NCBI RefSeq assembly: GCF_006345805.1
Contig: NC_043006.1
Location: 35,588,001 to 35,652,000 of the forward strand
From: Octopus sinensis
Lineage: Eukaryota
Length of the DNA: 64,000 nt
Reading direction: 5' to 3'
Shown: positions 7,675 through 24,057 of the stretch, piece by piece
Layout: every line of letters begins with the position of its first letter
Position numbering within the stretch: the stretch's first letter is position 1
Notes under the pieces: model-generated
Told to the model about the DNA's origin: nothing
Seen by the model: the letters and a program-made list of their open reading frames with translations, nothing else
Database searches by the model: none
Program-made: the position numbers and the translations under genes

Positions 7675-7947
7675 TATATTAGAAGAAATGAGGTAATCAG
7701 AAGGTCGGATGGTTCATATTTATAGATATTTATTTATATATTACATTTTTTACATATATATATCATATCATTCAGATTATTAGCGCTTTCTCCCATTCTA
7801 GTGGGGTTTTCAAATCCCCACTAGAATGGGAGAAAGCGCTAATAATCTGAATGATATGATATATATATGTAAAAAATGTAATATATAAATAAATATCTAT
7901 AAATATGAACCATCCGATCTTCTGATTACCTCATTTCTTCTAATATA
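7675..7947. repeat. Near-perfect fold-back palindrome (132-bp arms, 9-nt loop), probable Penelope pLTR remnant in (TA)n
   Basis: 7675-7806 is the reverse complement of 7816-7947 with one mismatch. Each arm carries CCCCACTAGAATGGGA-GAAA-GCGC-TA, a hammerhead 3'-half-like motif. Confidence 0.95.
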
Positions 7948-8029
7948 CATATATATATATAATTGCACACGTAATCCACTCGTATTCGGATCTTATTTAT
8001 TATCGTCCGAGCTGTTTATTCTTTGGTTG

Positions 8030-8295
8030 CATCCCATATATTCGTTCTTCTCTATTTATGACTTTTTTATCCACTTACTTGGACCTTCTAGGTTCTTTTT
8101 ATGGTTATTATTTCGGTTGCTGTTACGTATATTACAAGTAACCTTATTATATATCTGCTTTAGCTTGGTTTCCAGGGCTATACGCTAATTTTTCTTTGTA
8201 TTCTGCTTCCTCCAAAACTTTGTTATACAAATTCTCGTTTTGCTTAAATATCACCTCATTAGACGACTACCTCGAAATGCTACTATAGACTGTGT
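8030..8295 (-). mobile_element. Decayed Penelope-like RT C-terminal (thumb) fragment
   Basis: Minus-strand translation SISR*SSNEVIFKQNENLYNKVLEEAEYKEKLAY parallels INKLSANENIF..YNNLALKKAGY at 9180-9260. Confidence 0.7.
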
Positions 8296-8784
8296 TATGT
8301 ACTTGGGGTGATTGCTATTTCAGTGAATATATGAATATATTTAAGGTTTTCTTTATATATGTGTGTGTGTGTGTGTGTGTATCTATATCTGCATATCTTT
8401 ATTTATTTCATTCCCTCTATGTCTTTCACCCCTCTCTGCCTTTCACTTTCTCTCGCTCAACCTCTCTCTTTCTCTTTTACCTTCTCTCTCACCCCCCCTC
8501 TCTCTCTCTCTCTTTATATATATATATTACGAAAAAGTAAGGCATTATCCCAAAACAATTACCGGTTTCCTCTCAGTTAGGTATTCAAATATGTTATTCA
8601 ACAGTTAACATGAATCCAATAAAGGTCTTATAAGATAAGAAATTAGATGAATATTCCGTTGGATAATTCTGAATATATTTCCTTAAGTATTTCCTGGAGT
8701 ATACATATTGACAATATTGAAAATAAGGATTACTCTGAAGTAGAATTAATATTACCCTTAATTTTATAATTATATGCCACCTTT

Positions 8785-8862
8785 TAAGACCAGCACTTGT
8801 TTCAATTGCACCGATTAGTAATCGTTGCAATATATAACGGTGCAGTCTATTCAGGGTTTTAA
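8785..8862 (-). ncRNA. Decayed hammerhead motif in the inverted pLTR
   Basis: Minus strand AAAACC-CTGAATA-GACTGCACCG..CGGTGCAATT-GAAAC. Homologous to 10567-10657 but with a core G changed to T. Confidence 0.6.
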
Positions 8863-10566
8863 CTTGATAGCATTCGTGATGGCTGTTTGATGATTTTCTT
8901 TTATAAACTCTGCGTTGTATAATGTAGAATTGTCCGTTAAGTCAGACGCGAACGTTTGCTATTTTAAGTTCTTATTGAATAATCATTTTCAGTCTATCGT
9001 TTCGAAACTGTTTATAGTTTAAATGATAATTATTCAGTTATACTTCGCAAATGTGAATTTCTTCATGTGCAAGCATCTCAAAGCATGCGCCTGTCTAGAA
9101 TTTATTACATTATAAATATTGGAAGTAATCATCTCAAATCAATAACGAATTCACTAATAAAGAACATTTCGTCTGGAATAAATAAATTATCAGCGAATGA
9201 GAATATTTTCCAACTTATTGAAGTCTACAACAACTTGGCACTTAAGAAAGCGGGATATGACGATGAAATTAAGTTTAATATGTCAAATATCGAATGAGAT
9301 TTAAATAATAATTTTAATATTGCTGTCATAAAATCTAGTACTATAAACAAATCTACCTATAATGAATGTAGTAATGGAGGTTTAAAATTAAATATTCAAG
9401 TTGATAAAATAACAAGAGCAGGTGATATTAATAGTGAAATAAACAAATGAGCAATTATATTTATAACAAAAGAGAAAATAATAAGATCATTGATAACCGG
9501 ATTAAAAATGTTCGTACTGCTAACGCAAATAAAGATGCAGTATTCTCAAAATAAAATCTCAAATTCTTATGATATAAAGTCGGCTAAAAGAGTTAAAGAT
9601 AAAAGTAAAAGTAAAATAAACTTCAAAATGGATCGAAATTAGAGAATACATACTCCTTCGAAAAACGGGTATTACCATCAAAATTATGATCTTAATAATA
9701 CTTCATCAATAATACTTTATGATCTTGAATAATACTTTTTGTTTAATCGTTCCATTTGTTAAACAGGTCAATTACATTTTTTTCAAATTGTTTAATTTAG
9801 CAATTCAATAATATTCTCCAAGAAACCACAAATATTGCAAGATTTTTAATCGACATAAGATTAGATCGGGTTATCGTCTTAGTCGTAACAAATTGTAACA
9901 GCATATAATGTTAAAATGTTACCGAAATTTCACAAACGTGATTACAATCAGAATAACATAATAAATTGAAAGCATAATAACGTCAAGCGGAATCTTTGCA
10001 ATTGTTCTAAACGGGAATCCTCTTATGTGCAAAATAAGTGTAAAACTAAAAATGTAGTATGTAGATGTTTAATTACATCAGAGAGAAAGGATTTCTTTTA
10101 CATCGATGGAACATTATTAATTTTCAAAAGGAGACTAGCAAATCATTTGAGTTCATATAAAGACAAACAATACAAGGGTCCAAACGGGTCATAGCAAATT
10201 AATCTGGACCATACGATTAAATGGGAGTTAATTTGTACTGCAAAACCATACAAACTTGGAGCCAATAGATGTAACATGTGTTTAGAAGAATTTTACAGGA
10301 ATTTCACACCCAACGGTAATGTAATACATTCTAGACCGGAGAAGACATTAAGATGCTTGCACATGAGGAAATTCTAATTTACGAAGTACAAATGAATGAA
10401 TATCATTTAAACTATACAATCTTTTGAAATGATGGACTGACGATGCTTAAGCAGTAAGGACTTGAAATAGATATTGTTCGCGTCTGATTTAACGGACAAC
10501 TCTACATTATACAACGCAGAGTTTATAAAAGAAAATCATTAGACGGCCATCCCGAGGTATAGCAAG

Positions 10567-22426: not shown

Positions 22427-22755
22427 TCACTTGTTTCAGTAACTTGGCTACGGCCATGCTGGGGCACCACCTTTTAGTCGAACAAATTGACCCACGACTT
22501 ATTATTTGTAAGCCTATTACTTATGGTCACTTATGCTGAACCGCTAAGATTCGAGGACGTAAACTCACGATCATCGGTTGTCATGCGATGGCGGCGACCT
22601 TCTTTCAGTTTCCGTTAACCAAATCCACTCACAAGGCTTTGGTCGGCCCGTTGATATAGTAGAAGTCACTTTCCTAAGGGGCCACGCTGTGGGACTGAAC
22701 CCAGGACCATTTCGTTGGGAAGCAAGCTTGTTACCACATAGCCACTCCTGCGCCT
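22427..22755 (-). mobile_element. SINE family A copy lacking the internal microsatellite
   Basis: The 3' module joins directly to the 5' module at ~22590. Confidence 0.85.
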
Positions 22756-22989
22756 ATCTATCTATCTATCTATCTATCTATCTATCTATCTATCTATCTA
22801 TCTATCTATCTATCTATCTATCTTCTATCTATCTATCTATCTATCTATCTATCTATCTAAGGATATTGGAATGCTACACATATACACCATTATGCCTATA
22901 AAACGGATTTACGAATTCAATACCCATACATATTTTACATCTATTTTATTTCTTCCACCTCACTCCCTATTTGTAGCTCACCGCAACTA

Positions 22990-23135
22990 ATTATGACTTA
23001 ATTTTTCCTCTCACACCGTCTCCGATGAAGGGATATTATTAATCAATATCCTAGAAACAGCTGTATTACCTTCTGTCTATAATTGGTCTAATATCTATAC
23101 AGCCGTGTTTTGTTATCTCATTACGCAAAAATTCT
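22990..23135 (+). mobile_element. Probable Penelope pLTR remnant with a hammerhead-like motif
   Basis: CCGATGA 23022-28; helix II GGATATT/AATATCC; GAAA 23054-57; C-AGCT-G-TA; runs into a microsatellite. Confidence 0.6.
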
Positions 23136-23927
23136 TATATGTATGTATGTATGTATGTATGTATGTATGTATGTATGTATGTATGTATGTATCTATCTAT
23201 CTATCTATCTATCTATCTATCTATCTCTATCTATCTATCTATTTATATATATATATATATATATATATATATATATATATATATATATATATATATATAT
23301 ATATATATATATATCTATATCTATATATTCATTTAGGTTTTGCTTTCTGTTTTCTTTGAGTTAATTCTTTCAATTTCTTTTCTATTACTTCATTCTCCAT
23401 CTGTTTATTCAGCTCTTTATCATTTTGTGTTTTTCGTATTCCACTTAACACTTTTTCTTTCACTGTTTTGCCTCATTTCAATGGGATTACCCTTCCTTTA
23501 TCTCGCTCGTTTCCTTCATGATAAACATTCCCTTCATCATTTGTCCCCTGTTTTATCTACTCCGTTTTTTTTTTTATGTTACCTGTCTCGATTCTCTCTT
23601 TCTTTCTTTCGTTGTTCGAAAGCAAATTCGTTTTCTATGTTTTGTTTTTTATGTTCTCGTTCCTCATTTTGTTCACGTTTTTTTTTACGTCCTGTACCCA
23701 TATATGCATGTATATATACATATATATTCGGTATATACATATATGTATGTATATATGCATTATTTATACTTATTATTCACATTATTATATGATCGAACGC
23801 CACGCATCTATTTCCAAATAAGTTTCATCTATCTATCTTTATATATATATATATATATATATGATCCAACAGAGGTATAATCAAGAAATATACTCCATCC
23901 AGTGAGAGGTAAATATCAATATAAACA

Positions 23928-24057
23928 CACAACCGAAAGAGCAACTAATAGTTTCATGCCCTTATAATACATGAACAGCCATTGAACAGCCATTTTATAA
24001 ATATGGCTGTTCAAGTATAATAAAAGCATGAAGCTACTAGACGCTCTTTTGGCTGTG
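23928..24057. repeat. Diverged fold-back palindrome in (TA)n, probable Penelope pLTR remnant
   Basis: 55-bp arms (23928-82 / 24003-57) with 10 mismatches; 11-bp duplication TGAACAGCCAT beside the apex; arm consensus GAAACTACTAGTC. Confidence 0.8.

What the first reader, a model, noticed from the sequence alone, without database searches (positions are those of the whole stretch)
7675..24057. Recurrent design: unrelated fold-back palindromes in (TA)n whose apex sits at a hammerhead core
Seen: three palindromes with no obvious sequence similarity to each other (7675-7947, 13901-14042, 23928-24057) share one architecture. Each is flanked by (TA)n, the left arm continues into extra unique sequence, and reading outward from the apex each arm gives helix II-GAAA-short helix III-NUH. 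The fold point is 4 nt upstream of CTGAAGA (13976) or where the CUGANGA core should be (7811, ~23998). Two have a 10-11-bp duplication beside the apex in the left arm. Established: Penelope-like elements carry minimal hammerheads in their pLTRs and often form inverted 3' copies. Inference: reverse transcription may stall at the uncleaved ribozyme and the cDNA snaps back on itself, seeding tiny ribozyme hairpins. The apex lies about 30-45 nt upstream of the predicted cleavage site, so it is not simply a cleaved RNA end. I am not aware of this apex rule being described.
Basis: partly seen in the sequence, partly recalled or inferred. Interest (0 to 1): 0.75.

Follow-up and report, generated by a model that had tools for sequence, protein, structure and literature searches.

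The report
Penelope stubs end at predicted start
The three mirror-image DNA pieces are short back-to-back insertions of three different Penelope-type jumping genes, and in two of the three families the copies stop at a fixed point 29 bases after a TATA box, which likely marks where the element's RNA begins, so the stubs likely form when two DNA copies run off the start of the RNA and are joined, not because copying stalls at the ribozyme.

Summary
The palindromes are real and belong to three high-copy Penelope-like (PLE) families. P1 (7643-7947) is a Neptune-type end, P2 (13832-14042) Hydra-type, P3 (23863-24071) Hydra-like. Full-length parents were found for P1 and P2. The apex rule holds for P2: 20 of 40 tail-anchored loci are mini-palindromes, 37 of 60 arms end at -6 to +13 from the core, none at -7 to -39; 508 such loci genome-wide. 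It holds more loosely for P1 and fails for P3, whose apex is the helix II tip about 35 nt downstream of the core. In P1 and P2 the wall lies 29 nt after a conserved TATAAA, so it is likely the pLTR transcription start, with the hammerhead at the RNA's 5' end. One tailed arm per palindrome (68/69), mirrored variants (46/49), varied junctions and symmetric trimming (14:14) favour two joined cDNAs over stall and snap-back. No RNA 5'-end data were obtained; ribozyme activity is untested. The architecture is published; the TATA+29 wall was not in the papers searched. This scan reached a similar reading before on other DNA.

The parts
7643..7674 (-). P1 one-sided tail (32 nt, between the two inferred RT start sites)
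   Evidence: followed directly by the ORF region in full-length copy L275
7675..7816 (-). P1 tailed arm: 3' end of a Neptune-type PLE, 5' end 3 nt upstream of the core
7807..7813 (-). P1 hammerhead-like core UUGAAAA (U3-A8 variant), spanning the geometric centre
   Evidence: U3-A8 variant described in PMC4209133
7816..7947 (+). P1 tail-less arm, starts at helix II (core missing), ends at the first inferred RT start site next to (TA)n
13832..13900 (-). P2 one-sided tail (about 68 nt)
   Evidence: followed by the rest of the 5' UTR and the ORF in full-length copy L280
13901..13978 (-). P2 tailed arm of a Hydra-type PLE, with a private 10-bp duplication (13953-13962/13963-13972)
13975..13978 (.). 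P2 apex: shared AGCT; the A at 13975 is the family wall, TATA+29, predicted transcription start
13975..14025 (+). P2 type I hammerhead-like motif: helix I 13975-13980/14020-14025, core 13981-13987, helix II 13988-13999 (U.U at its base), GAAA 14000-14003, helix III 14003-14018, predicted cut after 14019
   Evidence: activity untested
14026..14042 (+). P2 tail-less arm end (first inferred RT start site, TA-rich) joined to (TA)n
23863..23909 (-). P3 one-sided tail (boundaries approximate)
23910..23998 (-). P3 tailed arm of an old Hydra-like PLE, with an 11-bp duplication (23972-23982/23983-23993); stops in helix II, core not reached
23991..24006 (.). P3 apex = tip of the family's natural helix II hairpin, about +35 from the core
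23999..24071 (+). P3 tail-less arm (decayed), ending in TA-rich sequence

Best explanation
The palindromes are head-to-head insertions of Penelope-like retrotransposon ends in (TA)n, and in families P1 and P2 their arms stop at a wall 29 nt downstream of a TATA box that is likely the pLTR transcription start, each stub likely being made anew when two reverse transcriptases run off the 5' end of the RNA and the two cDNAs are joined. Shown: full-length parents have the order TATA, hammerhead-like motif, site 1, tail, site 2, ORF, 3' UTR, second pLTR; the wall; one tailed and one tail-less arm; mirrored variants; variable junctions. Inferred: (1) the TATA box starts a transcript at +29, which puts the hammerhead in its first 50-60 nt; (2) the element's protein nicks both strands of a (TA)n target and primes at site 1 on one strand and site 2 on the other; (3) when the sites near the RNA's 5' end are used, both cDNAs end after 70-140 nt (P2) at the RNA start; (4) their 3' ends are joined by end-joining, using short microhomology (AGCT, AATT), trimming or filler; (5) use of the sites in the 3' pLTR gives the long inverted or single-arm copies. 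The template is uncleaved RNA. The ribozyme lies near the apex because it lies near the RNA start; it does not set the apex. P3's window copy is a more trimmed join at a natural hairpin tip.
For: Wall: P2 tail-anchored sample, 60 arms: 23 read through (-40 or further), 37 end at -6 to +13 (18 at -6), 0 at -7 to -39; 20 of 40 loci are mini-palindromes; 508 exact-pattern mini-palindromes against 285 read-through arms of one subfamily pattern. P1 (loci), 50 arms: 10 read through, 39 end at -13 to +14, 1 at -37. The first T of TATAAA lies 29 nt upstream of the wall across the 14 P2 and 10 P1 spacer variants listed (two P2 variants shifted by a 1-nt deletion; two read CATAAA); P1 subfamilies whose core lies 13 or 12 nt from TATA+29 pile up at -13 (8 of 13 arms) and -12 (6 of 15). 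Full-length parents L275 and L280 have this TATA upstream of the ORF. Two cDNAs: exactly one tailed arm in 68 of 69 P2 palindromes; tailed arm further in 14, tail-less in 14, equal in 15 of 44; tail-less single arms of P1 exist (9 of 24 unpaired arms are tail-less with the 5' end on (TA)n). Made anew from one template type: diagnostic variants mirrored in 46 of 49 P2 palindromes (random pairing 0.42) and 9 of 10 P1; 25 different junctions in 49 loci of one subfamily. Uncleaved template: only 70 genome hits diverge at the cut site, about 34 of them truly truncated by eye, against at least 6365 arms. In vitro, an Anolis PLE nicks and extends both strands, starts at two sites that bound the tail, and uses uncleaved RNA (PMC11167929). 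A TSS inside the pLTR is published for Penelope and Chlamys-3.
Against: No RNA 5' end was observed: only Logan contigs were available, and they showed no start. P3 shows no wall (48 arms spread from +63 to -77, one reference copy) and no TATA at a matching distance. P1's wall is blurred: end positions are maximal extents and microhomology or (TA)n can add 1-3 nt; the -11 subfamilies are too few to test, and two arms of one duplicated locus scored -13 by chance alignment. A cap-derived extra C is suggested in P2 (first filler base C in 18, T in 7, A or G in 0) but can also be templated from nearby sequence, and P1 shows no arm at -14. D. virilis Penelope has a TATA-less internal promoter with the start well upstream of the hammerhead, so the geometry is not general. 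Later deletions at the centre of a palindrome could also symmetrise the trimming.
Confidence: 0.7

Rival explanations
1. The wall is another kind of fixed RNA end or join point: a processed 5' end (splice acceptor, nuclease cut) or a hot spot set by the 4-bp palindrome at the apex.
For: The commonest P2 junction uses the AGCT overlap (15 of 49 in one subfamily) and several P1 junctions use AATT. P2 has an AG and a branch-point-like CTAAT just upstream of helix I, and in D. virilis the intron ends at the 5' end of helix I.
Against: Many junctions keep both AGCT copies with filler between them. None of 40 tail-anchored loci folds at the longer 6-bp palindromes in helix III. Single arms joined to (TA)n stop at the same wall. 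P2 arms include the AG and carry no shared upstream exon; no splice joint appeared in four contig sets (weak). P1 has no AG at its wall.
Confidence: 0.13
2. One reading: reverse transcription stalls at the folded, uncleaved ribozyme and the single cDNA snaps back on itself.
For: The apex is within about 15 nt of the core in P1 and P2, the template is uncleaved, and mirrored variants would follow. P3's window apex is at a natural hairpin tip, where fold-back priming is plausible.
Against: The wall is at the 5' foot of the motif, after the ribozyme has been unwound. It follows the TATA box, not the core. The tail-less arm reaches further as often as the tailed arm (14:14). The commonest junction has no loop. 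Unfolded single arms share the wall.
Confidence: 0.07
3. The palindrome is itself the mobile unit (MITE-like or copied from a hairpin transcript), and the junction variety arises later by breakage at the centre.
For: Hundreds of near-identical 200-bp copies exist, and 2-3 junction types recur.
Against: Each of six helix II loop variants has its own palindromes with the variants mirrored on both arms (46 of 49); 25 junction types in 49 loci. Long inverted pairs with the same two ends form a continuum up to several kb. The stubs lack the TATA box.
Confidence: 0.05
4. Self-priming on an antisense transcript makes the head-to-head junction (proposal of Arkhipova et al. 2013).
For: Published reading of palindromic inverted junctions in Adineta PLEs (PMC3846280).
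Against: It does not predict a wall tied to the sense-strand TATA box, single arms ending at that wall, or the fixed one-tail pattern.
Confidence: 0.04
5. The palindromes are assembly chimeras.
For: Perfect palindromes can arise from fold-back reads.
Against: 508 loci with locus-specific junctions, subfamily-matched arms and a one-sided tail; contigs of run X16 hold at least 15 different joints across the apex (the run may be the source sample).
Confidence: 0.01

Closest known systems
Insertion units of EN+ Penelope-like elements with an inverted 5'-truncated pLTR and a one-sided tail (Pen2a_Av, PMC3846280; Fig. 2 legend of PMC8557442)
   Same: Head-to-head pLTR ends, tail on one side, palindromic junction, AT-rich targets; a putative TATA box in the pLTR was noted for Pen2a_Av.
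   Different: Here half of a family's sampled loci are ORF-less 200-bp stubs whose arm ends pile at one nucleotide 29 nt after the TATA box; the published reading was self-priming on an antisense template.
Hydra clade of C-terminal EN+ PLEs (Craig et al. 2021, PMC8557442, section 11)
   Same: P2 parent L280/L281: RWR, DKT, CxCX5C linker, C-terminal GIY-YIG-like domain, hammerhead motif, (TA)n target. P3 lies downstream of Hydra-like RT and EN remains (L065).
   Different: The hammerhead differs from that listed for Hydra-1_Obim in the supplement; the P2 parent spans about 5.5 kb because of a long microsatellite-rich 3' UTR; P2 tail about 68 nt rather than 30-40.
Neptune clade of PLEs
   Same: P1 parent L275/L132/L133: RT (PF00078), DKG, CX2-5CxxC linker, C-terminal GIY-YIG (PF01541), 32-nt tail, (TA)n target.
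   Different: Its hammerhead-like core is the U3-A8 variant with a C.A mismatch at the base of helix II; no tree was built.
Poseidon_Ac (PAc) in vitro mechanism (Frangieh et al. 2024, PMC11167929)
   Same: Two RT start sites bounding the tail, both target strands nicked and extended, uncleaved RNA used.
   Different: That paper (parts 1-2 of 4 read) does not report run-off at the RNA 5' end or head-to-head joining; in PAc the ORF overlaps the hammerhead, here it starts after the tail.
Minimal hammerheads of metazoan PLEs (Cervera and de la Pena 2014, PMC4209133)
   Same: Type I motifs in pLTRs, U3-A8 variant, palindromic short helix III (P1), pairs on opposite strands 100-700 bp apart noted in Schistosoma.
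   Different: All three families have a mismatch instead of the conserved G10.1-C11.1 pair; no apex rule or link to the promoter is described in the sections read.

Membership tests
EN+ Penelope-like elements | pLTR-ORF-pLTR parent with RT and GIY-YIG endonuclease | tested here: met
   P1: L275 with RT PF00078 and, in sister copy L133, GIY-YIG PF01541. P2: L280 pLTR-ORF-pLTR; Pfam gave no hit on its three fragments, the assignment rests on motifs. P3: RT and EN remains upstream in L065 only.
EN+ Penelope-like elements | Inverted 5'-truncated copy with a one-sided tail | tested here: met
   68 of 69 P2 mini-palindromes have exactly one tailed arm; 21 of 23 P1.
Neptune clade (P1) | CX2-5CxxC linker before a C-terminal GIY-YIG, DKG motif, simple-repeat target | tested here: met
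   Motifs; (TA)n flanks.
Neptune clade (P1) | Placement in an RT tree | not tested
   No reference set was at hand in the script machine.
Hydra clade (P2) | DKT, RWK-like motif, CxCX5C linker, (TA)n target, hammerhead | tested here: met
   DKT, RWR, CxCX5C read in the L280 translation against the clade description.
Hydra clade (P2) | Length under 3 kb; absence of the CCHH motif | tested here: inconclusive
   The coding part is about 2.2 kb but the unit about 5.5 kb; CCHH was not scored separately.
Hydra clade (P3) | Diagnostic motifs in an intact parent | tested here: inconclusive
   Only decayed RT/EN matches to the P2 protein (E 3e-8, 8e-16) and none to the P1 RT; no full-length parent found.
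Type I hammerhead ribozyme | CUGANGA / GAAA / NUH core with three helices | tested here: inconclusive
   P2 has all core letters and helices I-III, and the commonest variants differ at N7 and in loops, but U.U replaces G10.1-C11.1; P1 has U3-A8, C.A and a weak helix I; P3 has an 8-nt core. No Rfam hit.
Type I hammerhead ribozyme | Self-cleavage | not testable with these tools
   No genomic pile-up of ends at the cut site; one tandem copy breaks exactly there (L279).
Non-LTR retrozymes | Tandem head-to-tail monomers, each with a hammerhead | tested here: not met
   Units are head-to-head or single; one two-copy tandem among the fetched P2 loci (L279); coding parents exist.
MITE / foldback DNA transposon | One master palindrome copied as a unit, symmetric termini | tested here: not met
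   Asymmetric ends, 25 junctions in 49 loci, mirrored subfamily variants.
RNA polymerase II core promoter | TATA box about 30 nt upstream of a mapped capped start | tested here: inconclusive
   TATAAA at a constant 29 nt from the wall (the -30 spacing is recalled textbook knowledge); the start itself was not mapped.

The most novel reading that the evidence does not exclude
Penelope-like elements make a 'double strong-stop' product: because the pLTR promoter puts both RT start sites near the 5' end of the RNA, a dimeric RT copies cap-proximal RNA onto both strands of the target and the run-off cDNAs are joined head to head. This one step would explain inverted pLTRs, the one-sided tail and the thousands of hammerhead mini-palindromes in animal genomes, and would let the apex be used to map PLE transcription starts from DNA alone, in at least two clades (Neptune and Hydra).
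Probability: 0.6. Interest if true: 0.68.

Novelty: new variant of a known kind. Interest (0 to 1): 0.5.

Why it matters
How PLEs form their tandem and inverted ends is named as open in PMC8557442, and the published proposal is antisense self-priming. A nucleotide-sharp wall tied to a TATA box in two clades gives a concrete model that CAGE and the existing in vitro PLE system can test directly. It also explains why hammerheads keep turning up at palindrome centres without any role of the ribozyme in the fold. The stubs themselves lack the promoter and are likely inert.

Tried and rejected
Rfam: no hammerhead family among the rows listed for the window (150 of 206 shown) or on a P2 stretch. RNA evidence: no RNA holder listed on record; contigs of 8 runs showed no start and no splice joint, inconclusive. 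Cleavage footprints: 70 hits diverge at the cut site on the 3' side and 43 on the 5' side; by eye about 34 and 1 are true truncations, so no pile-up; the single tandem broken at the cut site (L279) is not a pattern. Splice acceptor or trans-splicing at the wall: rejected for lack of a shared upstream exon. Upstream hairpin as a stall site in P1: present in one subfamily only (listing). A scan of 944 kb of fetched DNA for further palindrome families with a usable read-through reference gave none (its seed filter found only 17 hairpins, so it was insensitive). P3 wall: not found. An ORF fragment near L209 proved to lie outside the P2 insertion. Pfam did not recognise the P2 ORF fragments. The first end-mapping script mis-set the core in some references and was replaced.
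Full report
1. Observation. Self-comparison of the window finds the three palindromes at 7675-7947 (98%), 13901-14042 (96%) and 23910-24075 (71%). 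They share no similarity beyond 15 bp, lie in (TA)n and carry a one-sided extension. The 10- and 11-bp duplications are confirmed. The P2 fold is 4 nt before CTGAAGA. The P1 core lies on the minus strand across the centre as UUGAAAA. The P3 apex is not at the core: the family core CTGAAAGA is about 35 nt upstream and absent from this copy, and the apex is the tip of the family's long helix II.

2. Families. Each palindrome belongs to a dispersed family: first-look candidates 1407 (P2), 1359 (P1) and 466 (P3). Exact patterns count at least 6365 P2 arms, 982 P1 arms and 122 P3 arms. A full-length P1 parent (L275) has the order pLTR, tail, ORF with RT, linker and GIY-YIG, 3' UTR, tail-less pLTR. 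Pfam gives RVT_1 and GIY-YIG on P1 copies, and DKG and CX2-5CxxC are present: Neptune-type. A full-length P2 parent (L280) has the same order, with RWR, DKT and CxCX5C, matching the Hydra description (PMC8557442 section 11); Pfam did not recognise its fragments. P3 lies downstream of decayed Hydra-like RT and EN in L065. All ORFs seen are broken by frameshifts or stops.

3. The apex rule. To avoid selecting for palindromes I queried with the P2 tail alone and fetched all 40 loci. Twenty are mini-palindromes, 19 read through, 1 was unclassified. Of 60 arms holding the anchor, 23 read through to -40 or beyond, 37 end between -6 and +13 (18 at -6), and none ends between -7 and -39, counting from the first core base. 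In the first 100 of 6365 rows, counted by eye, 46 read through, 52 end between +16 and -7, 1 ends at -15 and 1 is an internal duplicate. Genome-wide, 508 loci match the mini-palindrome pattern of one helix II variant and 285 arms match the read-through pattern of the youngest subfamily; the two patterns do not cover the same subfamilies exactly. For P1 (39 loci), 10 of 50 arms read through, 39 end between -13 and +14, and 1 scores -37. For P3, 48 arms spread from +63 to -77 against one reference: no wall. Long inverted pairs with apices hundreds to thousands of bases upstream also exist, so the rule describes a size class, not all copies.

4. What sets the wall. In read-through copies the first T of a TATAAA box lies 29 nt upstream of the wall in both families, although the spacer sequence varies (14 P2 and 10 P1 variants listed). 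TATA+29 is -6 in P2 and -11, -12 or -13 in P1 subfamilies. Among P1 arms reaching -8 or further, the -13 subfamily has 8 of 13 ends at -13 and the -12 subfamily 6 of 15 at -12. These are maximal extents, so microhomology can add 1-3 nt, and the loci were picked for being short (34 short-arm loci fetched). In both full-length parents this box is upstream of the ORF. A spacing of about 30 nt between TATA and the start is recalled textbook knowledge. I infer that the wall is the RNA's 5' end. The start was not observed: only contigs were available. In P2 the first filler base after arms ending at -6 is C in 18 and T in 7 of 25; this fits a copied cap but also local templating, and P1 shows no such extra base.

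5. One cDNA or two. Exactly one arm is tailed in 68 of 69 P2 palindromes and 21 of 23 P1 palindromes. The tailed arm reaches further in 14, the tail-less arm in 14, and they are equal in 15 of 44 P2 cases; P1 gives 9, 6 and 6. Snap-back of a tailed cDNA predicts only the first and third classes unless later deletions intervene. Tail-less single arms joined to (TA)n at both ends occur in P1 (9 of 24 unpaired arms), so both 3' ends act as independent start sites. Diagnostic variants are mirrored in 46 of 49 P2 (chance 0.42) and 9 of 10 P1 palindromes, and 49 loci of one subfamily show 25 junctions; two loci in these sets are duplicated copies counted twice. The stubs are therefore made repeatedly from one template type. 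None of the 40 tail-anchored loci folds at the 6-bp palindromes in helix III, so microhomology alone does not choose the site.

6. The ribozyme. P2 folds into helices I-III around a full core (hammerhead fold -7.3, MFE -8.5 kcal/mol with the same helices I and III); common variants differ at N7 and in loops. All three families have a mismatch at the base of helix II, and Rfam does not score them. Ends do not pile up at the cut site: 70 hits diverge there on the 3' side (about 34 true truncations by eye, 17 of them joins through the 6-bp helix I homology) and 43 on the 5' side (1 clear truncation). The template is thus mostly uncleaved RNA. A transcript across the window palindrome would be one hairpin (-104.9 kcal/mol) that hides the motif.

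7. Mechanism. Shown: anatomy, wall, TATA distance, tail pattern, mirroring. Inferred: transcription from TATA+29; nicking of both strands of (TA)n; priming at site 1 and site 2; run-off at the RNA start; end-joining. Confidence 0.7. The stall and snap-back model gets 0.07, mainly because the wall is at the side of the ribozyme that RT reaches last.

8. What is known. PMC8557442 (passages, section 11, supplement searched): inverted 5'-truncated copies, one-sided tail, (TA)n bias, TSS within the pLTR. PMC3846280 (passages, Discussion): palindromic junctions, a putative TATA box, antisense self-priming. PMC11167929 (parts 1-2 of 4): both strands extended, two start sites, uncleaved template. PMC4209133 (abstract, Results, Discussion): minimal hammerheads, U3-A8, pairs on opposite strands. 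PMC2377424 (passages): TATA-less internal promoter in D. virilis. bioRxiv 10.64898/2026.07.22.740005 (part 1 of 5): retrozymes as PLE derivatives. Seven searches found no paper describing a wall at a fixed TATA distance; the library lacks most subscription journals. I noted the TATA idea. Later look-ups showed that other agents of this scan reached run-off and capped-start readings on other DNA, including this genome; those notes are unreviewed and not independent support. One of them gave the lead to the Hydra clade, which I then tested.

9. Verdict. Real, ordinary objects with an informative regularity. Interest 0.5; new variant of a known kind.

Noticed in passing
window 20456-20743: A fourth palindrome (288 bp, 81%) without (TA)n flanks or an evident hammerhead motif; possibly a foldback or MITE-type element.
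   Followed up: no
window 8831-10598: Inverted arms (8831-9112 / 10317-10598, 83%) overlapping decayed matches to the Hydra-type RT (9043-9276) and EN (10027-10392): probably an old PLE insertion.
   Followed up: partly
window 37982-38043: Small 62-bp palindrome (90%), about half simple repeat.
   Followed up: no
L279:1909-2150: Two P2 pLTR copies in tandem; the first breaks exactly at the predicted cut site. A genome pattern search showed no enrichment of such ends.
   Followed up: yes
L280 (minus strand, 5' pLTR): The full-length P2 copy keeps only about 5 nt upstream of the TATA box before (TA)n, a minimal upstream promoter piece.
   Followed up: no
P1, P2, P3 hammerhead-like motifs: All three unrelated families have a 1x1 mismatch (C.A, U.U, U.U) where canonical hammerheads have G10.1-C11.1; P3 also has an 8-nt core and a helix II of about 60 nt.
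   Followed up: partly
rows (17 loci): Joins in which one arm ends at the cut site and the other starts at helix I, using the ribozyme's own 6-bp helix as microhomology, leave a single hammerhead motif in the loop of a small hairpin.
   Followed up: partly
L077:2505-2825 and L277:3450-3900: Further long palindromes in flanking DNA; the L077 one has a CTGACGA...GAAA motif about 75 nt from its centre on both arms.
   Followed up: no
L275, L280: In both full-length parents the tail is followed by TACATAT, so both inferred RT start sites are TA-rich and could pair with the (TA)n target.
   Followed up: partly
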